NCBI GenBank assembly: GCA_026003195.1
Contig: BPGU01000003.1
Location: 472,763-536,762, forward strand
DNA: 64,000 nt
Direction of reading: 5' to 3'
From: Armatimonadota bacterium
GTDB lineage: Bacteria; Armatimonadota; HRBIN16
Below are positions 1 through 35,990 of the stretch, one piece after another (position 1 is the stretch's first letter; every line of letters begins with the position of its first letter). Position numbers and translations under genes: made by a program. The notes beneath the pieces are model-generated. The model was given only the letters and a program-made list of their open reading frames with translations, was not told the origin of the DNA and searched no databases.

Positions 1-336
1 CCAGTCGTAAGGGTCGGTGTTCCAAGGCTTGCGAGGCACCCCGTGGCTGGGGCAGCGAAAAATGTCCTCGTTCTTAACGTATGGCAGAATGAACCCTGAC
101 CACGTGTTGGGGAAATGGGTGAACTGCCAGTACGTATCCCAAATGGACATGCCGTCGTAGTCTTCCACGTACATCCGCGCTGCAGTACCGATCTGCTTCA
201 TGTTAGACAGACACGAAGCCTGCCGTGCCTTTTCCCGAGCTTGCGCGAAGACCGGGAACAGAATCGCTGCCAGTATCGCGATAATCGCGATCACTACGAG
301 CAGCTCAATCAGGGTAAAACCGCGACGAGATTTCAT
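1..336 (-). CDS. prepilin-type N-terminal cleavage/methylation domain protein (DUF1559 / H-X9-DG family), 5-prime part only; gene runs off the window
   Basis: Reverse-complement translation from ATG (334-336) reads [61 protein letters not shown]..., the canonical type IV pilin-like leader plus DUF1559 N-terminus. No stop before position 1. Its start overlaps the stop of the upstream regulator (ATGA). Confidence 0.8.
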
Positions 337-1472
337 GGTGAACCCTCCTTCTGGTTTTCAGGTTGTCGAGATGTTTGAGAGTGTGGCGGTGCACACGAAT
401 CGCGCAGCACCACCTGAGCGGGTATCTCTACCCGTTGAGGAACTGGTTTGCCCTCCATCATGTCCATCAGCAGACGTACACCCGTGCGCGCCATCTGCTC
501 GAGGTCCACGCGCACCGAGGAGAGGGGCGGCTGCATGGTGGTGCAGAAAGGCTCGTCGTCGAAGCCGATAAGCGAGAGGTCTTCCGGCACCCGTACGTTC
601 ATCTCCGTGATCGCGGGATAGGCGAACGCCAACAGGATGTCCGACGCTCCCACGATAGCCGTCAGGGGTGGACGTACTTCCAGCAGCCGCTTCAGCGCCT
701 CCTGAACGGTAGGACGAGGCTGACCGTGTTGCATCACCCAGCTGGCTTCAGGGGTGATGCCCGCTTCTTGTAACGCCTCCATGTAGCCCTCGAAACGCTG
801 GGCGTAATGAGGCATATAGTGACCGGTAAAGAAGCCGATGCGCTGGTGTCCGAATCGAATCAGCTCACGCACCGCCAGATAGGTGCCCTCACGGTTCGCC
901 TGCACCACACGGGGAACCGGAACCTCGGGCTCGGCATCTACCACCACTACCGGATAACCCCGCCGCTGCATCCACAGCAGCCCCTCATCGTGCAGAGGAC
1001 CGAACACCAGCGCGGCGTCGAAGCGGTGGTGTCGCTCCCACTCTTGCAGGTAGCTGGCAGATGCGCTTCGGTCGGGGAAGTGGAGTAACAGGCTACCCCA
1101 CAGATGCCGGGCACACTCCTCCGCCGCTGCGTGCAACATGCGCATCTCGCCCACCGAATAGGAGGGGCGTGCCCCCGGTATCTGCCAGGTGTAGATGAGA
1201 GCAACCAGATGCTGTTGCACCGGCTGTTTGGGGCGGCTGGCGGCGATAACCGTTCCTCGCCGTGTGCGTTCCACCACCCCACGCTGCGCCAGCAGAGTCA
1301 GCGCACGCTCGGCGGTCTGGTAACTGATGCCGTAGTGCCTGGCGATAGCACGGGCAGACCACAGGGGAATGCCCGGCTTGAGCTGCCCCGAGCTGACCGC
1401 TGCCTCTATCTGCTCCACGATTTGCACGTAGAGCGGTGTGCGCAGATGTGGGTTCAGGTGCAACGGTATCAC
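333..1472 (-). CDS. GntR-family HTH transcriptional regulator with C-terminal LacI/periplasmic-binding-protein-like sugar-binding domain
   Basis: N-terminus [22 protein letters not shown]...[31 protein letters not shown] is a GntR winged HTH. The remaining ~280 aa has a PBP type 1 fold pattern (RIGFFTG, LIGFDD). Probable GTG start at 1470-1472. Translationally coupled to the downstream DUF1559 gene. Confidence 0.75.
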
Positions 1473-1863: not shown

Positions 1864-1892
1864 TTGACAAACGTGGAAAGTTTTTGTATAAT
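1864..1892 (+). promoter_or_regulatory. consensus sigma70-type promoter (TTGACA-17 nt-TATAAT) upstream of the DUF1559 gene
   Basis: TTGACA at 1864-1869, a 17-nt spacer, TATAAT at 1887-1892. GGAGG RBS at 1935-1939 and ATG at 1950. Confidence 0.55.
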
Positions 1893-1949
1893 AAGGAAAC
1901 AAGTTATGCCCTTAACCGGGCGAAATCACCAGTGGAGGTGTTTCTGGTC

Positions 1950-2885
<936 letters not shown>

Positions 2886-2901
2886 TCTCACCCGTGCTCC
2901 G

Positions 2902-2934
2902 AATCCCTCTCCCACGCTGTGGGAGAGGGATTTT
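2902..2934 (+). terminator. intrinsic terminator hairpin after the DUF1559 gene
   Basis: Perfect 14-bp inverted repeat AATCCCTCTCCCAC / GTGGGAGAGGGATT with a 3-nt loop, followed by TTTT. Confidence 0.5.
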
Positions 2935-3083
2935 GGCTATTCTCTCTTGCGCCCCCGCCACTTGGCGTCCAACAGCCTGCCGATTTGCTTGTCGGGAGTG
3001 GAAGGTTGAGGCGCAGCTGGACGAGGGGAAGTCTGCGGTGTTTCCCAAGCAAGTATTGGAGGCTGAGCAAGGACTACGAGGCT

Positions 3084-3844
3084 TTACCGCAGACCGGTGA
3101 GGCGTTGATCTATGCCAGCCGTGGTTCCGGTGGTGGTCCGACTCTTGGCATGTAGATGACGTAAACCCGCCTCCACACGCGCCACAGGCAACCAACCTGC
3201 CTCCTCCAACTGCTTTAACAAACACGCCCGATGCCCACACAACCTGTCCCCCACCAACAAAGTGCCAGACGCCAAACCACCACGACCATATCGCTCCACC
3301 CACTCCCCCAACAGCCGACCCTCATCCGCATACGCCTCCCCCAACTGCAACCCCACCACCCAGACCCGACCACCCTTCCCAACGCCACCCTCTTCACATG
3401 CGACCGCTGCTGACGTGCCTGTGCCCCTCGCCAATACTGCGCGAAAAACGGCGAGGGCTACCCCACCCCCGTGCCATCCACAAACACACATGACGTCTCA
3501 CCGGTCGGCGTCTCGGCACCGATACCCTGCTGGACGAGCCAATGGAGCAGTTGTTGCAGGCGTTCGTCTGCAAGATGCCGCAAGCGGTAGGAGAGCGTGC
3601 CTAAGGCAGGCAGAGGGTGGTCGGGCAGAATCTCGGGGGCAAGCGCAAAGAGCAGGCGTCGGTAGGGGACGTGTTCGCGCACGCCGAGCAGCCAGAGGGT
3701 GAGGATGAGGGCTTCGGGATACTTGTGGGGTCGTCCGCGTCGTTTGGGAAGGGGGTTCTCCTGGCAGAAGCGCAGGACAAGGCTGTAAATGGTGCGTACC
3801 CGTATGGTGGCGAGAGTAGTTCGTCTGGAGTATGTGTGTTTCAT
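3084..3844 (-). mobile_element. degenerate IS5-family (IS427-group-like, two-ORF) insertion sequence remnant
   Basis: OrfA (3458-3844) carries a DUF4096-type HTH: KRRGRPHKYPEALILTLWLLGVREHVPYRRLL. A second ORF (3084-3491) lies in the -1 frame and overlaps OrfA, with weak DDE-region similarity (VGDRLCGHRACLLKQLEEAGWLPVA resembles ADKGYDS..LR..L...G..PVIP). Catalytic residues appear lost and no terminal inverted repeats were found. Confidence 0.5.
3458..3844 (-). pseudogene. IS5-family transposase OrfA (HTH, DUF4096) of the IS remnant
   Basis: 128-aa ORF with the RRGRP-HKYP...LILTLWLL signature of IS5/IS427-group OrfA proteins. Confidence 0.5.
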
Positions 3845-3900
3845 AGTATGTTTTATACCCGATGCTCACCGATTTTTCGAACACCCTCTGCTACCCCTGA

Positions 3901-4189
3901 CTCGCCGCGCGGACAGATTGTAAGCCAGTATGGATGGTTGGTTAACCACCTGAAGGGAGCACACTTCCTGTTCGCAGACGGACACGCCAAGTGGACGCGC
4001 GTGCAGGTGACTATTGCCAACAACCTGTGGAAGTGGCACTGCTTCCAGAGACCGGGCGAGAAAACCTTCGCGGGCGGCGATAATGTCCGCGACTTCGCCC
4101 CGGGATACGGTGCGCGTATCGGTGCAGTGTCCGATGCTGCATCCTGCCGCGCTGTCGCTTCGATCCGGGTCGCGGCAGAATACAAGTAA
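3901..4189 (+). pseudogene. C-terminal fragment (about 95 aa) of a DUF1559 / H-X9-DG paralogue, truncated next to the IS remnant
   Basis: Translation ...[50 protein letters not shown]... parallels the C-terminus of the intact gene at 1950-2885. It has no N-terminal pilin-like leader and no start codon. Confidence 0.75.
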
Positions 4190-4214
4190 TCTCCTCTTCT
4201 CGTTCTCATCATCG

Positions 4215-4240
4215 TACGGGGCGCCCGAGGGCGCCCCGTA
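4215..4240 (+). terminator. GC-rich hairpin (11-bp perfect stem) downstream of the DUF1559 fragment; probable relic terminator
   Basis: TACGGGGCGCC-CGAG-GGCGCCCCGTA. No U-tract. Confidence 0.3.
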
Positions 4241-4573
4241 TGCATGATCCCGTCCCACCCTTACTTGCAGAGGTTTATGCCCCGCCGCAACCATAAAGTG
4301 CTTCCGCACACAGACATCCCGAATAGCCCCATACAGAGCGAAGCGGAGAATCTCCGAGATGCTTCCCTTTTGTTTAGCGACGGTAAATGTCATAAAGAAA
4401 ACTTTCCCCGCATCCCATAATTCCTTTATAGATGCTCTTCTTGAAGAGAGAGATGTACCCCGATGCCATCTTCGCAGAAACGCCCTCCTCGGTCACATCT
4501 CTGTTTGGATCGCTGCCCATGTGGTGAACCGAGTTGCGTACATAGCACGAACCTTCTTCAGGAGGTGACGTTG

Positions 4574-6919
4574 ATGCAACGATTTTACAACCTGAGCACC
4601 GCTGTGAAACTAGGTGTCGGTTTCGGGGTGTGTGCCCTGTTGACTGCAGCAGTAGGCATCTTCAACCTGGTGCAACTGGTGAAAGTGAACCAGCCTGCCC
4701 GCGAGGTCGTACGCCACCATCTGGCAAACGCTATCGCCTTTGGCAAGATGGACTCGAACATGCAGCAGGTTCGGGCGCGCGAGTTTCGCCACATGCTCGC
4801 CATCGGCGACCCCAAAGAGATGCAAGCTGCAGAGGAAGCCGCCCAGAAGAACATCCAGGCGATAGAAGAGGCTTTCAAGCAGTATGAAGCCTCCTTGACC
4901 TCGGAGGACAATCGCCAGACGTTTGAGGAGCTCAAAAGCGCGTGGGCGGAATATGTGAAGCTGCACGAACAGCTCATTCAGCTGAACCGTCAGGGCAAAC
5001 GCGCTGAGGCAGCGCGTTTTGTAGCAGAGCAGATGCGCCCTGTCCTGCGCGAGCGCATTGACCCGCTCATACAACAGATAGACCAGGAGGTTAGCGAGAA
5101 GAGCAAACGCGCTGAAGCCGCTATCATGGGCACGTACGGACGAGCACGAGTATGGACTATCCTCTTCGTGCTTTTTGCGGTAATGGTCGGTGTGCTCTTC
5201 GGCTGGACCATTTCACGTTACCTGGTAGGCGTGGTTCGGCAGATGATGCAGGGGATGGAAAGCCTGCGCACGGGTGACCTCAGCAGTCTCCAGCAGGCGA
5301 TGAGTGCCATGGAACAGGGTGACCTGACGGCACAGGTGACCACGCAGGCTCTCCCGTTGCCTGTCCAAACCCGCGATGAGTTCGGCATGCTGGCACGCAC
5401 GTATAACTCGATGCTGGAGGGCATCCACGAGATTGGGCGTGCCTACTCGAAGGCACAGGAGACTCTGCGCTCGCTGCTGGCTGAAGTTGCCCGCTCTGCA
5501 GGAGAGGTCTCCAGCGCAAGCACGGAGCTCGCGGCGTCCACCGAACAGTCCGGACAAGCCTCCAGCGAAATCGCCAGAGGCAGCGAGCAACTTGCCCAGC
5601 AAGCGGGCGAAGCCGCACAGGCGATGGACAACCTCGACCGAGCCATCCACACTGTGCAGCAGGGCAGCGAAGCACAACGCGAAGCCGCCCAGCAAGCCGA
5701 AGAGGGCATGAGACAGGCTGCCAAAGCGGTGGAAGAGGTCGCTCGCTCCGCCCAGCAGATGGCTGCCTCCGCCCAGCAAGCCAGCGCGATTGCCCAGCAG
5801 GGTGGGCAATCGGTGGAAGAGATGTTGCGCACCATGCGCCAGATTCAAGAGCAAGCGGAAGCCTCCGCGCAGAAGGTGGCGCAGTTAGACCAGCTGGGTC
5901 AGCAGATAGGCAACATTGTGCAGACGATCGAGCAGATCGCGGAGCAGACAAACCTGCTGGCGTTGAACGCGGCGATAGAGGCGGCGCGTGCGGGCGAGCA
6001 CGGCAGAGGTTTCGCGGTGGTGGCGGACGAGGTGCGCAAGTTGGCGGAGCAGGCAGGTGCTGCCACCAAAGAGATTGCGACGTTGATTGGCAACGTGCGT
6101 TCTGGAGTGGAGGAGGCGGTTCGCGCCATGCAAGCCACCGGTGCACAGGTTTCGGACGGTTTCGCCCGCAGTGAGCAGGTCGGTTCCGCGCTGATGCAGA
6201 TTGTGGAGTCGGCGCAGCAGGTAGCGGGTGAGGTGCAGTCGGTGACGGCGGTGGCGGAGCAGATGTCGGCGAGCGTGCAGCAGGTATTGGCGACGGTGAG
6301 CACGGTGTTGCAGAGCGCGGAGGAGAACGTTCGCGCGGCATTAGAGATGGCGTCTGGTGCGGAGCAGGTGTCTTCGGCGATTGCGTCGGTGGCGAGCATC
6401 AGCGAGGAGGCAGCGGCGAGCGCGCAAGAGCTGACCGCTACCAACGAAGAGGTCGCAGCCACTGCTCAGGAGCTGTCCAGAATGGCGTCGGAGCTGCAGC
6501 TGGCACTGGTGCAGTTCAACACGGGCGACAGTTCGGCTTTGCAGGAATGCATCCACGTGTTCAAGAACGCGCATATCAGTCGTGCAGAGCGGCTGCAGAA
6601 GGTGATAGCAGGCAAAGTCTCGTTGACCGAAGCCGCTCTGGGTGACCACACCACCTGCCATTTCGGCAAGTGGTACTATAGCTCCGGGCAAAGAGACTTC
6701 GGCGCATACGCGGAGTTTCAGGCGATAGAAGCTCCGCACGCCCGCTTCCACCAGCTGGAACAGGAGATTGTCTCGCTGGTCAACCGCGGGCAGAAAGGAC
6801 AAGCGGAGCGGTTGCTGCCTGAAGCCCTCCGGGCGAAGGACGAGATCGTTCATCGGCTGGATGCGCTGATGAACCTCATCAGCGGGAGACAACAAAACAT
6901 TTTGCGCAAAGCGGCATAA
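4574..6919 (+). CDS. methyl-accepting chemotaxis protein: 4HB_MCP sensor, TM, HAMP, MA signalling domain and C-terminal CZB (chemoreceptor zinc-binding) domain
   Basis: ATG at 4574, 8 nt after GGAGG. Two TM segments flank a periplasmic helical sensor. The signalling-domain core is [33 protein letters not shown]. The C-terminus H-x27-C-H-F-G-K-W-x22-H-A-R-F-H fits the CZB 3His/1Cys motif. Confidence 0.9.
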
Positions 6920-6948
6920 AAGAGCTGAAAGGCTACACTGTGCGAACA

Positions 6949-6974
6949 GAGGGGCACGATAGAGCGTGCCCCTC
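6949..6974 (+). terminator. hairpin terminator after the MCP gene
   Basis: GAGGGGCACG-ATAGAG-CGTGCCCCTC, a perfect 10-bp stem. No clear U-tract. Confidence 0.35.
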
Positions 6975-7147
6975 AGGAGTTATCCTGGTGCTTTCACGGG
7001 TGCGCGCCGCTGCACTCCACACCCAACGGCTCGGCAGGAGCCTCGCCCTCCAATGACCTGAATGAGGGGACATACTTCGCGGCGTCCAGAGGAGAGCTGT
7101 TCCCTTACCGCGAAAATACAGACGACGCCACAGGAGGTAGCGGAACG

Positions 7148-7554
7148 ATGAAGTGCTCTCGGCATATCTGGTTGCTTTTTCTCCTCATTGCCCTGTCTGC
7201 CGCCGCCTTTGCCCAGCAGAGCCCCGACTGGGTGCAGGTGCGGCGGGAGGTTCCCACTCCGGGCTCACCCTGTCTGGATGGACACGTCCGTCAGTACGGG
7301 TGGCTGGTGAACCATCTAAGGGGGTACACTTCGTGTTCGCAGATGGGCACGTGAAGTGGACGCGCGTGCAGGTGACTATTGCCAACAACCTGTGGAAGTG
7401 GCACTGCTTCCAGAGACCGGGCGAGAAAACCTTCGCGGGTGGCGATAATGTCCGCGACTTCGCCCCGGGATACTGTGCGCGTATCGGTGCAGTGTCCGAT
7501 GCTGCATCCTGCCGCGCTGTCGCTTCGATCCTGGTCGCGGCAAAGTACAAGTGA
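7148..7554 (+). pseudogene. chimeric, frameshifted ORF: Sec-type signal peptide fused to a mosaic DUF1559 H-X9-DG C-terminal fragment
   Basis: AGGAGG RBS then ATG at 7148. MKCSRHIWLLFLLIALSAAAFAQQ resembles a signal peptide. From about 7236 the DNA is about 97% identical to 2597-2700 of the intact paralogue, with a 1-nt deletion near 7318 that shifts the frame. From about 7350 it is about 97% identical to fragment 3990-4190. The domain continues in the second frame (7153-7554). Confidence 0.6.
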
Positions 7555-7633
7555 CATTTTCCTGTGGAAGACTAGAAGGCATGAGGCTTGACCAACCACC
7601 GGGAGGGGCGGTTTCGCATGGGACAGCAAAGCC

Positions 7634-8497
7634 TCACGCCTTCAACGCGCCGCTGGTGACCCCTTGCACGAAGGCGCGCATTCCTATCGCGAATAGCGCA
7701 ATCAGCGGCAGACTGCCTATCACATACCCCGCCAGTGTGGGACCATAGTCCAGGTTGAACTCGCCCGAGAAACGAGTCACGCCGACGGTGAAGGTCTGCA
7801 GGCTGCTATCGCTGATGGTGACGAGAGGCCAGATGTAGTCGTTGTAGATGCCCAGCGTGGTCATGATGGCGATGGTCGCCAGCGTGGGCAGGGAAAGAGG
7901 CAGGGCAAGATGGCGGTAAATCTGCACGTCGCCTGCGCCGTCCAGCCGCATCGCCTCGAACAGCTCGTCGGGCAAGCTGGTGAAGAAGGTACGACACAGT
8001 ACCACGCCCAGCACCTGCCCACCCGCCAGGTAGGGCAGTATCAACGCCCAGCGCGTGTTCAGCAGCCCCATGCTCTGCACCAGCGCGTAGGTGGGGATGA
8101 GCGTGAGGATACCGGGCACCACCAGCAGAGCCAGAATCAGCGCGAACACCCCATCGCGCCCGCGAAAGTGGAGCCGCGCCAGCGCGTAGCCCGATAGGGA
8201 ACTGAACAGCAACACACCCGGTACCACCACTGCAGTGACAATGAGCGTATTGAGCAGATAGCCCTTGAGTGCGATGGCGGCGTCGCGGTAGAAATCCCAG
8301 CGAGCAGGCTGGGGCAGTCCCCAGAAGCGGGTGAAGATATCGGCGTTGGTCTTCAACGAGAGCAACAGCATCATCGCGAAAGGCAACAGCGACAACGCCA
8401 GCAGCACCGCCAGCACCGCACCGGAGAGCACCTCCGAAAAGCGGAGGCGACGCCTTCGGGAGGGAGACAGTGAACGAACTGTGCGGAGTGGTTTCAT
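7634..8497 (-). CDS. carbohydrate ABC transporter permease (MalG/UgpE-like, binding-protein-dependent inner membrane component)
   Basis: Six predicted TM helices and the EAA-like loop ...EAMRLDGAGDVQIYRHLALP.... Start ATG at 8495-8497 overlaps the upstream permease stop (ATGA). Confidence 0.85.
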   Translation of the reverse strand: MKPLRTVRSLSPSRRRRLRFSEVLSGAVLAVLLALSLLPFAMMLLLSLKTNADIFTRFWGLPQPARWDFYRDAAIALKGYLLNTLIVTAVVVPGVLLFSSLSGYALARLHFRGRDGVFALILALLVVPGILTLIPTYALVQSMGLLNTRWALILPYLAGGQVLGVVLCRTFFTSLPDELFEAMRLDGAGDVQIYRHLALPLSLPTLATIAIMTTLGIYNDYIWPLVTISDSSLQTFTVGVTRFSGEFNLDYGPTLAGYVIGSLPLIALFAIGMRAFVQGVTSGALKA

Positions 8498-9381
8498 GTC
8501 AGCTTCTCCAGCCTCCTGCCCCAGAGCAGGTTCAACAGCGACAGTACAAATATCGCCACAAACAGCGTCAATCCGATGGCGGCAGCATACCCCAGGTGCC
8601 CGAAGCGAAACGCCTGAAAGTACATGTGCAATGCGGGCACATGCGTCGCCAGCCCCGGGCCGCCTCCCGTCAGAATCAGGATGCTTCCGAAATCCTGCAA
8701 CACACCGATGAGCGTGAGTATCACCAGCAGGCGCACCTGCGGTAGCAGAAGAGGCAGGTCCACATACCACACCCTCTTCCAGCCGCTCACCCCGTCCACC
8801 TGGCACGAGTCCCACACGTCACCCGAAATCTGGTTCAGTCCCGCGAGATAAATGAGCAGAGCCAGTCCCCCTGCCCATGGGAAGCCGATGCCGATAATCG
8901 CCCACAATGCGGTGCCGGACTCGCCCAGCCACGAGCGGGTCAACGCGCCCATACCCATCGCTTCCAGCACCTGATTGAGCAATCCCACACTGCCGTCGTA
9001 GATGAAGCTCCACAGCAGCATCGTTACCATACCGGGCACTACCATCGGCAGGATGAAGGCGGTACGCAACACGTACTGCCAGCGTGGCGAGCGCAGGCTC
9101 ATGAGCAGCTCCGCAACCAGCAAGGGCATGGTCAGCGTCTTCAGCACGCTGGCTATCAGAAGGATAAGCAGGTTGCGCAAGCTGAGGCGCAGGAACTCAT
9201 CGTGCCACATCGCCACGAAGTTCCCCAGACCAATCCACTGCGGGTCTTCGCCCGTTTCCCATCGCGTGAAGGCTCGCGACAAGCCCAGTATCGCCGGGTA
9301 GTAGTTGAACAGTGCCAAAAGCACCAGCGTCGGCGCGAGCATCAGCGCAATGACCACTATGGAGGTGCGTCGTCGGCTCAT
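8494..9381 (-). CDS. carbohydrate ABC transporter permease (MalF/UgpA-like)
   Basis: Multi-TM protein with ...DSCQVDGVSGWKRVWYVDLPLL... (EAA motif region). ATG at 9379-9381 overlaps the SBP stop. Confidence 0.85.
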   Translation of the reverse strand: MSRRRTSIVVIALMLAPTLVLLALFNYYPAILGLSRAFTRWETGEDPQWIGLGNFVAMWHDEFLRLSLRNLLILLIASVLKTLTMPLLVAELLMSLRSPRWQYVLRTAFILPMVVPGMVTMLLWSFIYDGSVGLLNQVLEAMGMGALTRSWLGESGTALWAIIGIGFPWAGGLALLIYLAGLNQISGDVWDSCQVDGVSGWKRVWYVDLPLLLPQVRLLVILTLIGVLQDFGSILILTGGGPGLATHVPALHMYFQAFRFGHLGYAAAIGLTLFVAIFVLSLLNLLWGRRLEKLT

Positions 9382-10805
9382 GAGGGTGTATCCTTCGTAC
9401 GGGGATTCATGTCCAGCTTCTGCATGGCGATCACGCGGGGCACCGCCTCCTCTATCAGTTGCTGGTAGCGTTTCAGAAACTCTTGCAGAGAGATGCGCCC
9501 CTCCATGTACCTCTGCGCCCACACCGTCCACTGCCATATTGATTCCTGCTCGTCCATCAGCCCACGAAAAGAGAGCTTTTCGAACCCTCTGCCCTCAAAG
9601 GGACGATAGTACCGCTGCAGTTCGGGGGGCATTTGCACGTCGGGGATAAGCATCGGACCGCTGAGGGTGCGACGGTGTCGCACGGCTTCATCCACCAGAA
9701 TCTGTGCGCCTTGTGGGCTGGTCAGGAACATCAGGAAATCTATCACGCGCCTCGTCTGCTGGGGGTTCTTCTTCACCACGCCCAGTACCAGCCCCGGTCC
9801 GCCCACCCCCCGAAACGGCGGTATCTTGAAGCGTGAGGTGATCAACGGTGGCACGGCGAAAATCCCCCACTCGAAACGCGCCCGAGGCGGCAGGTCCGCC
9901 ATGTCTTGCATCAGGTCGCCGATGAGCCACGAGCCTTCCAGCAGAATCGCCGCCCGCCCCGTCAGGAACAGGTTGTACGCGGTCACCGAGTTCGCGCCAT
10001 GAAAGCCACGTTGCCAATAGCGCGAAAAGTTGTGGATATGCGTATACAGCTCAGCGAAGCGTTCACCGTCAAAACGGATGAGTCGTCGACGCACCGCGTC
10101 TAGCAGCCGTTCGCCGTTGATGATGACCAGCGAGTCGTTATAAGGGTCGTTCAGGTTCAGGCGGAAGTGGGCGTTGCGCGTGGGGTCATAGTCCCAATCG
10201 CCCGGGCGCGACATCACCAGAGGAACCCACTGGCGCGTGTAGGCATCGGTAAAGAAGCGCACAATCCAGCCGACCGTGCCTGACCAGTAGGAATCGGCGT
10301 TGCCGGGCACAGCGAAGGGCAGGTAGCCTGCGGCGCGAATACGCTCCGCCAGAGCCAGCATCTGCTCCCAGGTGCGCGGAGGCTGTAAGCCCAGCTTGCG
10401 GAAAAGAGTCGCGTTGTAATAAAAACCAATCTCTACGAAGTCTACGGTAACGAACGAGACGCCGCCTGCGGTCTTAAACTTCTCGATGAACTGGGGGTTG
10501 AGCGTTTCTATCCACGCCTTGCCCGTATAGGGGTTGTGCTGGTTCAGGTAGGGGGCAAGGTTCACCAGCAAGCCTTTCTCATACATGCCCCAGGCATAGT
10601 TGGCGTTGAACAGGTCGGGCGCACGGTCTCCCGCTCCGGGAATCTGGGTGCGCAGCCACGTCTCATAGCCGTTCACGGGCATCACCTGCACCTTCACCTG
10701 CACGCCAGGGTGGGCACGTTCATACTCCCGCGCCAGCCGATAAAACCCCTCCCGGTAGTTGCCGCTCACGGTGGCGAGAAACAGGGTTGCCGCCTGTTGG
10801 GGCAT
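9378..10805 (-). CDS. ABC transporter extracellular solute-binding protein (family 1, sugar-binding)
   Basis: About 475 aa with typical SBP_bac_1 features and a Trp/Tyr-rich sugar-binding fold. Start assigned to the ATG at 10803-10805 with an upstream GGAGG. No obvious signal peptide at this start, so the true start may be an upstream alternative. Confidence 0.75.
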   Translation of the reverse strand: MPQQAATLFLATVSGNYREGFYRLAREYERAHPGVQVKVQVMPVNGYETWLRTQIPGAGDRAPDLFNANYAWGMYEKGLLVNLAPYLNQHNPYTGKAWIETLNPQFIEKFKTAGGVSFVTVDFVEIGFYYNATLFRKLGLQPPRTWEQMLALAERIRAAGYLPFAVPGNADSYWSGTVGWIVRFFTDAYTRQWVPLVMSRPGDWDYDPTRNAHFRLNLNDPYNDSLVIINGERLLDAVRRRLIRFDGERFAELYTHIHNFSRYWQRGFHGANSVTAYNLFLTGRAAILLEGSWLIGDLMQDMADLPPRARFEWGIFAVPPLITSRFKIPPFRGVGGPGLVLGVVKKNPQQTRRVIDFLMFLTSPQGAQILVDEAVRHRRTLSGPMLIPDVQMPPELQRYYRPFEGRGFEKLSFRGLMDEQESIWQWTVWAQRYMEGRISLQEFLKRYQQLIEEAVPRVIAMQKLDMNPRTKDTPS

Positions 10806-10959
10806 ATTTACGATTCCTCCTGCATGGTATAAGTTATCGGCTGGCAAGAAGGACTCCTGTGCGGGGAGGGTCTCTCGCGTGTTTCCCAGAGGAACGTCTC
10901 GCAGGATGGAGGAATCTGTAACAGAACGCCTTGCCTGAAGTAGAAAAACGGAGAGTGTC

Positions 10960-12195
10960 ATGAAGTCGGTGCACAGCATGGAATGGCATCCAGACCGTTC
11001 CTCCACGCAGAGGGAGACCCGCGCCCTGGGGGTAGTGTCTACGCCTCGTGACCTGGTAGAGTTCATGGTGCGCCTAGCTCAACCTTCGCGGAGGAGGTGT
11101 CGGGTGCTGGAGCCTGCCTGCGCCGAAGCGCCCTTCCTGGCTTCATTTGCCCAGCATTACGGTCGCGAACACGAGCTGGTCGGCGTAGAGATCGCCCCTG
11201 AACGCCTGCAACGCGCCCGTATGAGCTTACCTCAGGCTCACTTCATAGAGGCGGACTTTCTGCTGTGGGAACCTGTTGCACCGTTTGACATCGTTCTCGG
11301 CAACCCTCCGTACGGCATCATCGGCAACGCCTCGCACTATCCCCTTTATCCGTTGAAAGAGCGCAAAAGGCTCTATCGCCAGCGTTCAAGCACCTGGCAC
11401 GGCAAGTTCAACATCTACGGCGCGTTTATCGAACGGGCGGTGAACCTGCTAGCTGCAGGGGGCAAGCTGGTGTTTGTGGTTCCAGCCAGCTGGCTGGTGC
11501 TGGACGATTTTCATCGGCTGCGCCGATACCTGGCACAGTCGGGCCAATTGCACGTGTACTATCTCGGCAGGGTCTTTCCAAAGCGCAACGTGAGCGCGGT
11601 GGTGCTGATGCTGGAAAAGGGCGGGCAGGGGTTACTGCTCTACGATGGCATAGACGATGTGAAAGTGGCGCTGCCGAAGTATGGCGGTGAAATGATTCGG
11701 TTCGAAACGGACGAATGGCTGCGCTTTGAGCGGGAAGGCGTAGCGTTGGGAGACCTTTTTGATATCCGCTTCGCTGCACGTAGTACCGAAGTGCGCGCGC
11801 ATCCAGCAGTGGCTCTGGAGAAACGCGAGGGATATGTGCCCATTCTCACCGGGCGCAACCTGCACGCAGGCTGGATAGACTACGACACCTGTTACTCCGG
11901 ACTATGGATGCCCCACGAGCGGGTGGTGGAGCTGCGCACGTTCTATGGTTTTCCGCATCTGGTGGTAGCGCACACGAAAGGCGCGCGAGTGGTTTGTGCG
12001 TACGACGAGCGCTGTTACCCGTGGCGCGAGGAGTTTCATCTGGTGCCGAAGGCAGGAGGCTTAGACCTGCCCTCCATCAGGGAACATCTGAACAGTGAGC
12101 CTGTCCAGCGTTACGTGAGGCAACTCTATCGGGATTTCGTGCCCCACCTGACGGCTTCGATGCTGAGGCGGATACCTGTGCCCTGCGGATTCTGA
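10960..12195 (+). CDS. gamma-class N6-adenine DNA methyltransferase, close homologue of M.TaqI (TCGA-specific family); apparently solitary
   Basis: VLEPACAEAPFL (motif I), LGNPPYGIIG (motif IV, NPPY), and long collinear similarity to M.TaqI as I recall it: ...STWHGKFNIYGAFIERAVNLLAAGGKLVFVVPASWLVLDDF...YYLGRVFP...VSAVV...IRFETDE...LGDLFDIRFAARSTE...HPAV...VPILTGRNL..GW.DY....SGLWMP.ER..ELR.FY..PHLVVAHTKG.RVV.A.DER.YPWREEFHL.PK...LD......LNSE..Q..VR.LYRDFVPHLT..ML.R.PV. No endonuclease gene is adjacent. Confidence 0.85.
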   Translation: MKSVHSMEWHPDRSSTQRETRALGVVSTPRDLVEFMVRLAQPSRRRCRVLEPACAEAPFLASFAQHYGREHELVGVEIAPERLQRARMSLPQAHFIEADFLLWEPVAPFDIVLGNPPYGIIGNASHYPLYPLKERKRLYRQRSSTWHGKFNIYGAFIERAVNLLAAGGKLVFVVPASWLVLDDFHRLRRYLAQSGQLHVYYLGRVFPKRNVSAVVLMLEKGGQGLLLYDGIDDVKVALPKYGGEMIRFETDEWLRFEREGVALGDLFDIRFAARSTEVRAHPAVALEKREGYVPILTGRNLHAGWIDYDTCYSGLWMPHERVVELRTFYGFPHLVVAHTKGARVVCAYDERCYPWREEFHLVPKAGGLDLPSIREHLNSEPVQRYVRQLYRDFVPHLTASMLRRIPVPCGF

Positions 12196-12407
12196 GATGG
12201 TTCCGGTCCCTATATGGGTTTCTGCAATCGCTATGATTGCAAAAATCGCCTTATGCCCTTTTCAAATGGGAGAAGTTGGTGTACTATATTGACTGGGTGA
12301 AGCGAGTGAGACACCACAACGTGTAACATCAGGCAAGTCAGGCGTTACGCCTTGCAGATATAGTTGTGGTGTACGACCGACAACGCTACACAGAAAGGGT
12401 CACGACG

Positions 12408-32955: not shown

Positions 32956-33102
32956 GGCGCTATGGATACGGCTCGTCAGGAGCCTCGCCCTCCAAGTTCG
33001 TACAACAGCAGGGTGCTGCTCGGTCGTGGCCGCAAGATTCGAATGCGGCGGAGCGCCTCTCTCCCATCCGATGGGGAGCGGCCTGAGACGCAGAAACCTG
33101 CG

Positions 33103-35535: not shown

Positions 35536-35990
35536 GAGTGCTCCTACCTTATTTCGGTTATTTGACATCGCCTCTACCGATTCGCGGGGGATGGGCGTTC
35601 TCCTGCATCTGCCATGCAGGAAGGCTTCCATCCGCTAATGGTGGTCTTCTTCCAGACCGATGGCGGAATCCAGCCAGCGCGAGTGCGAAAGTCGCCAGTT
35701 GTTGCTGACCACCCGGCGACTGGAAGTCACGGGCAACGTGCACAAAACCTCCTTCGGGGGTTGATAACCTGCGTGAGCAGGTTTCGTCCTCTGTTGCCCG
35801 CGACTTTCCATCGCTGGGGCAAAACCAACATCTTAAGGAAAGGGTTTGACAAAGCAGTACCACTCTGTCAAGGCTCCATCTTCTGGAGGGCGAGGCTCCT
35901 GCCGAGCCGTTGTGGATGTGATGTTCGGCTCACCGGCATGTCGCCCTCCAGAGTATCAGAGCGAAGATGCATGTTTGACAGAGTACTACC

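What the first reader, a model, noticed from the sequence alone, without database searches (positions are those of the whole stretch)
3901..7554. Mosaic DUF1559 C-terminal fragments forming about 200-bp, 97%-identical direct repeats around the MCP gene
3990-4190 and 7350-7554 are near-identical (6 mismatches in about 205 bp by my alignment) and flank a 3.2-kb segment carrying the CZB chemoreceptor. The second copy is mosaic. Its 5-prime part (7236-7345) is about 97% identical to the intact paralogue at 2597-2700, then it switches to about 97% identity with the first fragment. This indicates gene conversion or recombination among H-X9-DG paralogues, and the repeats could mediate deletion or amplification of the chemoreceptor gene.
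Basis: seen in the sequence. Interest (0 to 1): 0.55.

Follow-up and report, generated by a model that had tools for sequence, protein, structure and literature searches.

The report
Repeat-flanked chemoreceptor gene, absent in sister strains
Two near-identical tail pieces of a pilin-like (DUF1559) gene bracket a chemoreceptor gene in this hot-spring Armatimonadota genome, and sister strains carry one hybrid tail piece and no chemoreceptor, so this is an ordinary but well-documented gene gain or loss by recombination between repeats.

Summary
Bases 3989-4187 and 7354-7552 differ at 5 of 199 positions and share an 86-bp exact run. Bases 7245-7361 match the intact DUF1559 gene (2593-2710) except for 3 substitutions and a 1-bp frameshifting deletion. 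The switch lies in 7354-7361.

Fragment 1 (3889-4190) abuts the terminus of a decayed IS5-like element. Its downstream spacer and the chemoreceptor gene are syntenic with relatives that carry a complete DUF1559 gene, then the chemoreceptor, then a 977-aa GxGYxYP glycosidase.

Fragment 2 (7250-7554) is fused by microhomology to the first 35 codons of that glycosidase gene, which is otherwise missing from the window.

Three contigs of a sister lineage (about 93% identical) carry a single fragment. It has fragment 1's left flank and fragment 2's right flank, and the 3365-bp chemoreceptor unit is missing. The crossover maps to the 86-bp identical stretch.

So the repeats are the joints of a homologous-recombination presence/absence polymorphism. 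I favour deletion in the sister lineage. The reverse, Campbell-type integration of a circle in this lineage, is not excluded.

The mechanism is known, so this is a new example of a known kind and of moderate-to-low interest.

The parts
1864..1892 (+). Promoter-like site (TTGACA-17-TATAAT, 12 of 12) upstream of the intact DUF1559 gene
   Evidence: Bases 1884-1950 are homologous to the 5' leader of the DUF1559 gene that precedes the chemoreceptor gene in relatives.
1950..2885 (+). Intact prepilin-type DUF1559 / H-X9-DG gene (311 aa), segment types A1-B1-C1
   Evidence: PF07963, PF07596 and TIGR04294 all above cut-off. 99% aa identity to the orthologue in L050 and 72-75% to L001/L047/L013.
2902..2932 (+). 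Perfect 14-bp-stem hairpin just after the intact gene, terminator-like
   Evidence: I7. Conserved 31/31 in L050. It did not meet the T-run rule of the terminator scan.
2940..3888 (-). Decayed IS5-like (DDE_Tnp_1) insertion sequence. The N-terminal ORF is 3458-3844 and the rest is frameshifted. The left limit of about 2940 is approximate.
   Evidence: NF033579 E=1.7e-5, below cut-off. 70 homologues, and full-length ones carry PF01609. Frame-by-frame translation matches them down to about 3084. The terminus at 3888 is defined by aligning four copies.
3889..4190 (+). Fragment 1: 3' remnant of a DUF1559 gene (types A2-B2-C2), no start codon, no prepilin N-terminus
   Evidence: TIGR04294 23.3 bits against cut-off 19. 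Alignments. The post-stop DNA is homologous to the DUF1559-chemoreceptor spacer of relatives.
3989..4074 (+). 86-bp stretch identical to 7354-7439: the interval in which the crossover seen in sister strains must lie
   Evidence: informative sites on either side.
4075..7439 (+). 3365-bp unit absent from sister strains (tail of fragment 1, spacer, chemoreceptor gene, glycosidase 5' stub, head of fragment 2). The phase is arbitrary within the 86-bp identity.
   Evidence: L048, L049 and L050 each align to the window up to 4187 and from 7286 on as one copy.
4571..6919 (+). Methyl-accepting chemotaxis protein gene (4HB_MCP, HAMP, MCPsignal, C-terminal CZB zinc-binding domain)
   Evidence: Pfam. Identical to GIV20919.1 apart from the start codon. 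The next-best proteins are 82% identical. Its 90% cluster has one member.
7107..7254 (+). Leader, ribosome-binding site, start (7148) and first 35 codons (signal peptide) of a GxGYxYP glycoside-hydrolase gene. The rest of that gene is missing from the window.
   Evidence: 78% nt identity to L001 3960-4101. The 977-aa gene of L001 has the four GxGYxYP Pfam domains. Only residues 9-34 are found in the window.
7250..7254 (+). Junction microhomology GTTCC (glycosidase GGCGGGAGGTTCC against DUF1559 GGCGGGGATGTTCC)
   Evidence: Three-way alignment.
7250..7554 (+). Fragment 2: DUF1559 3' remnant (types A1-B2-C2') fused in frame to the glycosidase stub, with a 1-bp deletion between 7310 and 7311 that splits it into ORFs 7148-7354 and 7153-7554
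   Evidence: After the frameshift is corrected, TIGR04294 scores 28.6 bits. Part of it is annotated as GIV20921.1.
7354..7361 (+). Switch point AAGTGGAC, just after the H-X9-DG coding stretch: intact-type sequence to the left, fragment-1-type sequence to the right
7555..7631 (+). Right flank of fragment 2, leading into a convergent sugar ABC transporter operon (permease ORF on the minus strand from 7634). The single fragment of the sister strains has the same flank.

Best explanation
The two repeats are 5'-truncated, non-functional 3' remnants of prepilin-like DUF1559 (H-X9-DG) genes. They are the two joints of a 3365-bp presence/absence polymorphism that carries the CZB chemoreceptor gene.

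Shown:
- Relatives have the order complete DUF1559 gene, spacer, chemoreceptor gene, GxGYxYP glycosidase gene.
- In the window, fragment 1 lies directly against the end of a decayed IS5-like element and keeps that spacer and the chemoreceptor gene.
- Fragment 2 is joined through a GTTCC microhomology to codon 35 of the glycosidase gene and is followed by an ABC transporter operon.
- A sister lineage has one fragment with fragment 1's left half and flank and fragment 2's right half and flank. The crossover lies within the 86-bp identical stretch.

Inferred:
- The exchange was RecA-type homologous recombination between the direct repeats.
- The most likely direction is deletion of the chemoreceptor unit in the sister lineage, with the window keeping the older state. 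One event then explains both the single fragment and the absence of any orthologous chemoreceptor there.
- The patchwork of sequence types among the three copies comes from earlier recombination or gene conversion among paralogues. The crossovers sit next to the most conserved (H-X9-DG) coding stretch.
- One economical reading is that an IS-bearing piece of another paralogue (about 2711-3988) split the ancestral gene into the present 'intact' gene and fragment 1.
For: Repeat identities and the switch point.

Ancestral order in relatives:
- L001, L047 and L013 carry DUF1559, then the chemoreceptor gene, then the glycosidase gene.
- L046 has a DUF1559 tail end immediately upstream of the chemoreceptor gene.
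- The spacer after fragment 1 is 71-79% identical to the relatives' spacer in the first 14 bases. It aligns with L013 out to window position 4241.

Boundaries:
- The IS terminus is at 3888.
- The IS family assignment rests.
- The glycosidase junction is shown.

Sister lineage:
- L048 1-579 matches window 3609-4187, and L048 312-3889 matches window 7286-10865.
- L049 2489-3529 matches 3155-4187, and L049 3262-3608 matches 7286-7631.
- L050 matches 1887-4187 and then 7286-7578.
- At the sites where the window's two copies differ, the single copy is fragment-1-like up to 3988. It is fragment-2-like at 4075, 4109, 4167, 4180 and after the stop codon.
- L048 and L050 are 99.6-99.8% identical to each other and 92-93% identical to the window.

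Absence of the gene elsewhere: no chemoreceptor more than 82% identical exists in the 5.8-billion-protein collection apart from the window's own. The collection includes the sister-lineage assemblies.

Recombination in the same gene part in another species: L001 against L047/L013 drops to 72-78% there, against 90-100% elsewhere.
Against: - The direction is not proven. Excision and integration are exact reverses, and every informative site fits both.
- Only two lineages are available, so parsimony on the locus alone is neutral.
- Deletion as the direction needs the distal end of the glycosidase deletion to have landed in another DUF1559 paralogue. That would be a coincidence, and the circle model explains it naturally.
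- The two left boundaries of the fragments lie less than 10 nt apart in gene coordinates. This has no explanation.
- The window's arrangement is seen in one assembly only, and the reads could not be inspected.
- Absence of the chemoreceptor in the sister lineage rests on assembled, gene-called data.
Confidence: 0.8

Rival explanations
1. Insertion in this lineage (Campbell-type). A 3.4-kb circle formed from a DUF1559-spacer-chemoreceptor-glycosidase locus by microhomology recombination between glycosidase codon 35 and DUF1559 codon 266. It then integrated by a single homologous crossover into the pre-existing IS-truncated fragment next to the ABC operon. The sister lineage keeps the empty site.
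For: - The unit between the repeats is exactly a contiguous block of the relatives' locus, closed on itself at a microhomology junction.
- This explains why the partner of the glycosidase stub is DUF1559 sequence at all.
- DNA on both outer sides of the unit is not syntenic with the relatives.
- The single-fragment arrangement is found in three contigs from two data sets.
Against: - It needs a donor locus whose DUF1559 3' end was about 97% identical to resident copies. That implies a conspecific donor or the same genome.
- It also needs a separate loss, or non-assembly, of the chemoreceptor locus in the sister lineage.
- The circle has no replication or transfer gene.
- No reciprocal product could be looked for, because only 64 kb of this genome is held.
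Confidence: 0.3
2. Assembly artefact. The chromosome really has the single fragment, as in the sister strains. The chemoreceptor unit belongs to another locus or a separate molecule and was threaded in through the shared repeat.
For: - The occupied arrangement is seen in a single metagenome-assembled genome.
- The unit forms a cycle through the 86-bp repeat in an assembly graph.
- One sister contig (L048) ends inside the IS remnant about 280 bp upstream of the fragment, which shows this region is hard to assemble.
Against: - The sites that distinguish the copies on either side of the identical run (3988 and 4075) are only 88 bp apart. Ordinary reads would span and phase that distance (inference).
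- The glycosidase-DUF1559 junction and the A1-to-B2 switch rest on 5-8 bp of shared sequence. That is too short for k-mer mis-joins.
- Both junction sequences must exist in the reads.
Confidence: 0.05
3. The fragments are maintained silent cassettes. Like pilS copies of Neisseria, they would donate C-terminal sequence to the expressed pilin-like gene by gene conversion.
For: - The intact gene has a prepilin N-terminus and a consensus promoter.
- The fragments lack both and lie within 5 kb of it.
- The fragment is 98% identical between lineages whose flanking genes are 92-93% identical.
- The C-terminal region is mosaic within and between species.
Against: - Each fragment boundary is explained by an accident: an IS end and a fusion to another gene's stub.
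- Fragment 2 is frameshifted.
- Sister strains have a single fragment.
- The intact gene is 99% identical in protein between lineages, with no C-terminal hypervariability.
- No G-quadruplex motif lies near the expressed gene.
Confidence: 0.05

Closest known systems
RecA-dependent deletion or duplication between direct repeats, and its reverse, Campbell-type integration of a circle (own knowledge of established bacterial genetics)
   Same: - Direct repeats of about 200-300 bp with an 86-bp exact core flank a 3.1-kb segment.
- Related genomes carry one hybrid repeat and lack the segment.
- The crossover maps inside the identical core.
   Different: - The repeats are neither IS copies nor rRNA operons. 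They are dead 3' ends of a paralogous gene family.
- The event is inferred from comparing genomes, not observed.
- The direction is unresolved.
DUF1559 / H-X9-DG prepilin-like paralogue families (PF07596, TIGR04294). 74 genes are reported in Rhodopirellula baltica (PMC2754498) and 68 in Planctopirus limnophila (PMC10632474).
   Same: - The intact gene has the prepilin methylation motif, the DUF1559 domain and the H-X9-DG C-terminal domain.
- Both fragments keep the H-X9-DG stretch.
   Different: - The host is Armatimonadota, not Planctomycetes.
- The fragments lack the N-terminal two thirds and cannot make a pilin-like protein.
IS-mediated adjacent deletion (own knowledge)
   Same: A gene remnant starts exactly at the terminus of an IS, and the missing gene part is not at the IS's other end.
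   Different: - The IS is itself decayed by frameshifts and a stop, and it is fixed in both lineages.
- A CCCTC overlap at the joint leaves a microhomology join possible.
pilE/pilS pilin antigenic variation in Neisseria (own knowledge)
   Same: - Promoter-less copies lacking the N-terminus lie near an expressed pilin-like gene.
- The 3' coding sequence is mosaic.
   Different: - There are only one or two fragments, and their boundaries are accidental.
- One fragment is frameshifted.
- The expressed gene shows no variation between lineages.
- No G4 element was found.

Membership tests
DUF1559 / H-X9-DG prepilin-like protein (intact gene 1950-2885) | N-terminal prepilin cleavage/methylation motif | tested here: met
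   PF07963 33.5 bits (cut-off 21.2). TIGR02532 36.5 bits (cut-off 16.3).
DUF1559 / H-X9-DG prepilin-like protein (intact gene 1950-2885) | DUF1559 (SBP_bac_10) domain and H-X9-DG C-terminal domain | tested here: met
   PF07596 55.8 bits (cut-off 23.3). TIGR04294 25.8 bits (cut-off 19).
DUF1559 / H-X9-DG (fragments 3889-4190 and 7250-7554) | H-X9-DG C-terminal domain present | tested here: met
   TIGR04294 scores 23.3 bits for fragment 1 and 28.6 bits for frameshift-corrected fragment 2, against a cut-off of 19.
DUF1559 / H-X9-DG (fragments 3889-4190 and 7250-7554) | Complete gene with prepilin N-terminus and DUF1559 domain | tested here: not met
   No Pfam hit. Homology to complete genes starts at about codon 266-268. 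Fragment 2 is frameshifted.
IS4/IS5-type DDE insertion sequence (2940-3888) | DDE_Tnp_1 transposase | tested here: inconclusive
   The N-terminal ORF hits NF033579 at 24.4 bits, below the cut-off of 140. Full-length homologues carry PF01609. In the window the catalytic part is readable only across frameshifts and gave no Pfam hit.
IS4/IS5-type DDE insertion sequence (2940-3888) | Defined termini with inverted repeats and a target-site duplication | tested here: inconclusive
   One terminus is defined at 3888 by conservation among four copies. The other end, the inverted repeat and any duplication were not found.
Homologous-recombination indel between direct repeats | Direct repeats with an exact core long enough for RecA pairing | tested here: met
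   199 bp at 97.5% identity, with exact runs of 86, 57 and 33 bp.
Homologous-recombination indel between direct repeats | Related genomes with a single hybrid repeat, both outer flanks kept and the inner segment absent | tested here: met
   L048, L049 and L050.
Homologous-recombination indel between direct repeats | Both states or the circular product observed within one population; dependence on RecA | not testable with these tools
   Needs reads or experiments.
pilS-like silent cassette system | Several in-frame silent copies, variation of the expressed gene's C-terminus, a recombination-initiating element | tested here: not met
   There are one or two fragments and one is frameshifted. The expressed gene is 99% identical in protein between lineages. 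No G4 motif lies near it.
Methyl-accepting chemotaxis protein with CZB domain (4571-6919) | MCPsignal, HAMP, 4HB_MCP sensor and CZB domains | tested here: met
   PF00015 153.9 bits, PF00672 37.6 bits, PF12729 96.8 bits and PF13682 51.3 bits, all above cut-off.

The most novel reading that the evidence does not exclude
The truncated DUF1559 tails are not just debris. They would be retained recombination cassettes, so the large DUF1559 pilin-like families diversify their exposed C-terminal tails by gene conversion from silent 3' fragments, as Neisseria does with pilS. As a side effect, the cassettes would act as portable homology that moves neighbouring genes such as this chemoreceptor between loci.
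Probability: 0.05. Interest if true: 0.75.

Novelty: new member of a known kind. Interest (0 to 1): 0.35.

Why it matters
- It is a clean natural example of how dead pieces of a very large paralogous family supply the homology for gain or loss of an unrelated gene. Here that gene is a zinc-binding-domain chemoreceptor that differs between strains of one uncultured hot-spring Armatimonadota species.
- It shows that the 3' region next to the H-X9-DG motif of DUF1559 genes is a recurrent crossover site within and between species. That is relevant to how these unexplained families of 60-70 paralogues evolve.
- It warns annotators that GIV20921.1 and the 190-aa ORF family (P0123) are pseudogene pieces.
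- It does not reveal a new mechanism.

Tried and rejected
- Exact-protein look-ups of the intact gene and of the chemoreceptor, with my start codons and with P0001, found nothing on record.
- The word-index search with the fragment returned a single protein. Its 90% cluster then supplied the decisive sister-strain contigs.
- Pfam found nothing in the fragments or in the transposase ORF. NCBIfam and a full HMMER search were needed.
- A search for terminal inverted repeats of the IS inside the window was uninformative.
- All P0197 loci are one fixed remnant at one site. They helped define only the IS terminus.
- I rejected a simple tandem duplication of the tail-chemoreceptor-stub segment. In that case fragment 2 would be followed by the spacer and a second chemoreceptor gene, but its flank is the ABC operon flank shared with sister strains.
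- I rejected a chimera between the window's own copies as the source of the mosaic, because only 8 bp are shared at the switch.
- A search for the rest of the glycosidase gene in the window found only residues 9-34.
- The literature on DUF1559 is sparse (4 papers) and says nothing on recombination.
Full report
**1. Observation**

The window (58% G+C) comes from the metagenome-assembled genome 'Armatimonadota bacterium KatS3mg023'. The chemoreceptor is GIV20919.1 and the second fragment's ORF is GIV20921.1, both on a 922-kb contig.

A self-comparison of all 64 kb gives five non-trivial matches. Three of them involve the finding:
- 3926-4187 against 7292-7552: 93.1%, E 3e-108.
- 2593-2773 against 7245-7424: 88.4%.
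- 2638-2773 against 3924-4059: 78.7%.

Ungapped counting gives 5 mismatches in 199 bases for 3989-4187 against 7354-7552. Exact runs are 86, 33 and 57 bp.

Copy 2 matches the intact gene over 7245-7361 = 2593-2710, with three substitutions and one missing base. It changes allegiance within AAGTGGAC at 7354-7361. Similarity between the fragments stops at the stop codons.

The DUF1559-derived part of copy 2 starts at 7250, not 7236.

**2. What the pieces are**

- The gene at 1950-2885 is a complete prepilin-type DUF1559/H-X9-DG protein: PF07963, PF07596 and TIGR04294 all score above cut-off. A 12-of-12 consensus promoter match lies at 1864-1892. A perfect 14-bp hairpin follows the gene at 2902-2932.
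- Another DUF1559 gene runs off the window start on the minus strand, behind a GntR/LacI-type regulator.
- Both fragments keep the H-X9-DG stretch. TIGR04294 scores 23.3 bits for fragment 1 and 28.6 bits for fragment 2 after frameshift correction. Both lack everything upstream of about codon 266.
- Between the intact gene and fragment 1 lies a decayed insertion sequence on the minus strand:
  - ORF 3458-3844 is the N-terminus of an IS5-like transposase (NF033579, E 1.7e-5, below cut-off).
  - An exhaustive HMMER search found 70 homologues. The full-length ones (about 325-444 aa) carry PF01609.
  - The window sequence can be followed against them through frameshifts down to about 3084.
  - Aligning the window with three other copies fixes the IS terminus at 3888 (...GAACACCCTC|TGCTACC...). 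Fragment 1 therefore starts at 3889, with a 5-nt ambiguity (CCCTC).
- The gene between the repeats (4571-6919) encodes a chemoreceptor with 4HB_MCP, HAMP, MCPsignal and a C-terminal CZB domain.

**3. Relatives give the older gene order**

The nearest other species have chemoreceptors 82% identical in protein: L001, L047 and L013. They carry a complete 317-aa DUF1559 gene, a spacer of about 227 bp, the chemoreceptor gene, and then a 977-aa secreted GxGYxYP glycoside hydrolase. L046 (77%) has a DUF1559 tail end directly upstream of its chemoreceptor gene.

In the window:
- The DNA after fragment 1's stop codon is homologous to that spacer, at 71-79% identity in the first 14 bases. It aligns with L013 out to window position 4241.
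- Bases 7107-7254 are the leader, ribosome-binding site and first 35 codons of the glycosidase gene.
- At GTTCC (7250-7254) the sequence leaves the glycosidase gene and continues as DUF1559. The two parents read GGCGGGAGGTTCC and GGCGGGGATGTTCC, which is a microhomology join.
- The rest of the glycosidase gene is not in the window.
- A missing G between 7310 and 7311 splits the fusion into ORFs 7148-7354 and 7153-7554. Fragment 2 is therefore a pseudogene unless that base is a sequencing error.

**4. The decisive comparison**

The 90% cluster of the annotated fragment-2 protein holds two more sequences. Their contigs, plus one found through the transposase ORF, belong to a sister lineage. L048 and L050 are 99.6-99.8% identical to each other and 92-93% identical to the window in the ABC and PFOR genes.

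All three have one fragment only:
- L048 1-579 aligns with window 3609-4187, and L048 312-3889 aligns with window 7286-10865.
- L049 2489-3529 aligns with 3155-4187, and L049 3262-3608 aligns with 7286-7631.
- L050 aligns continuously with 1887-4187 (intact gene, hairpin, IS, fragment). It then aligns with 7286-7578.

Site by site, the single copy is fragment-1-like up to 3988. It is fragment-2-like at 4075, 4109, 4167 and 4180 and in the stop codon and flank. The exchange point therefore lies in the 86-bp identical stretch, and the 3365-bp unit with the chemoreceptor is absent.

No protein more than 82% identical to this chemoreceptor exists in the collection apart from the window's own. The collection includes these assemblies.

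**5. Direction**

Excision and integration are exact reverses, so the informative sites fit both. With two lineages, parsimony on the locus alone is neutral.

For deletion in the sister lineage:
- The chemoreceptor and its linkage to a DUF1559 gene are old in this clade.
- One deletion then explains both the single fragment and the absence of the gene from the sister lineage.

For integration in this lineage:
- The unit is precisely a contiguous block of the ancestral locus closed on itself at a microhomology. That is what a circle would look like.
- This explains why the glycosidase stub is joined to DUF1559 sequence at all.
- The outer flanks are not syntenic with the relatives.

I put deletion at about 0.5, integration at about 0.3, and the remainder on other histories or artefact.

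**6. The mosaic**

I split the 3' region into three segments: A (to KWT), B (RVQ to TFAGG) and C (the tail). The copies read as follows:
- Intact gene: A1-B1-C1.
- Fragment 1 and the sister-lineage fragment: A2-B2-C2.
- Fragment 2: A1-B2-C2'.
- L001: A1-like, B2, C1-like.
- L047 and L013: A2-like, B2, C1-like.

B2 is the type shared with the relatives (83-87%), and B1 is the outlier (72-73%). Fragment 2 therefore has the same A1-B2 combination as a complete gene in L001. The 'intact' paralogue may be the copy whose tail was replaced.

One economical reading (inference) is as follows. The ancestral gene at this locus was 5'-A1-B2-C2 followed by the spacer and chemoreceptor gene, as in the relatives. 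Supporting this, the leader 1884-1950 is homologous to theirs. An IS-bearing piece of another paralogue (about 2711-3988: B1-C1, hairpin, IS, A2) then recombined into it. That produced the present intact gene and fragment 1.

Among the relatives themselves, L001 drops to 72-78% identity against L047/L013 in just this part of the gene, while the rest is 90-100%. L046 has yet another hybrid tail. Recombination beside the conserved H-X9-DG coding stretch is thus recurrent.

**7. Artefact check**

- The intact gene and fragment 1 share no exact run of 15 bp or more, and only 8 bp at the switch.
- The glycosidase junction rests on 5 bp.
- Neither junction can arise from a k-mer mis-join between copies in the window.
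- The sites that phase the repeat are 88 bp apart, which is within one read.
- Mis-threading of a separate chemoreceptor-bearing molecule through the repeat remains conceivable, because the occupied state is seen in one assembly only. I give it 0.05.

**8. Unexplained**

- The two left boundaries lie within 10 nt of each other in DUF1559 coordinates. One is the IS end at 3888/3889 and the other is the glycosidase junction at 7250-7254. Chance is roughly 1%, and I have no mechanism.
- Between the window and L050, both DUF1559 genes, the IS ends and the fragment are 96-99% identical. The neighbouring genes are 92-93% identical, and 3247-3533 is only 81%. Recent gene flow at this locus is the likeliest reason, but it is not shown.

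**9. Known context and verdict**

DUF1559 proteins form very large paralogous families of unknown function: 74 genes in Rhodopirellula baltica (PMC2754498) and 68 in Planctopirus limnophila (PMC10632474). Recombination between repeats, IS-adjacent deletion and microhomology joins are all textbook processes.

It is now backed by natural empty-site genomes. It is still a new example of a known kind, not a new mechanism.

A pilS-like cassette role for the fragments is the most novel reading that is not excluded. It is disfavoured by the following:
- The fragment boundaries are accidental.
- Fragment 2 is frameshifted.
- Sister strains carry only a single fragment.
- The expressed gene does not vary between lineages.

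Noticed in passing
window 7028-7051 (+), 32970-32993 (+, 1 mismatch), 35885-35908 (-); also L001 18-43 and L050 9409-9442: A short dispersed repeat, GGCTCGGCAGGAGCCTCGCCCTCC, contains a small hairpin (GGCTC...GAGCC). It recurs in intergenic DNA of this genome and its relatives. One copy sits between the chemoreceptor gene and the glycosidase stub.
   Followed up: partly
window 10866-12235 (ORF 10960-12195): A DNA-methyltransferase-like gene lies between the ABC-transporter binding-protein gene and the PFOR gene. It is absent from sister strains L048 and L050, where those two genes are adjacent. This is another strain-specific indel 3 kb from the finding. The methyltransferase call is by eye and was not tested.
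   Followed up: partly
L050 5984-9631 (equivalent to between window 7574 and 7632): One sister contig carries a 3.65-kb segment with a 1063-aa alpha-amylase gene (PF00128) immediately after the fragment. The window, L048 and L049 have 57 bp there instead. The fragment's right flank is therefore also structurally polymorphic.
   Followed up: partly
L049 1-2488 against window 3155: In a second variant from the same assembly as L050, the IS remnant is cut at window-equivalent 3155. It is joined to a different GntR/LacI regulator plus DUF1559 pair, with no intact DUF1559 gene in between. The decayed IS is a third rearrangement breakpoint.
   Followed up: partly
window 3889 and 7250-7254: The two DUF1559 fragments begin within 10 nt of each other in gene coordinates, although one abuts an IS end and the other a glycosidase stub. 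Both joints overlap the motif GTTCCC(T)C.
   Followed up: partly
window 1-450, 1898-3100, 3534-4074 and 7440-7578 against L050: The DUF1559 genes, the IS ends and the fragment are 96-99% identical between lineages. The neighbouring ABC and PFOR genes are 92-93% identical. A patch inside the IS remnant (3247-3533) is only 81% identical.
   Followed up: partly
window 7148-7554: If the 1-bp deletion were a sequencing error, this would be an intact 135-aa chimeric ORF. It would combine a glycosidase signal peptide with a DUF1559 C-terminal tail, behind the glycosidase gene's ribosome-binding site.
   Followed up: no
L001 851-1261 against L047 and L013: In the related species, the 3' 400 bp of the DUF1559 gene and part of the chemoreceptor sensor domain (L001 1751-2251) are much more divergent (72-84%) than the rest (90-100%). 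This indicates recombination tracts there too.
   Followed up: partly
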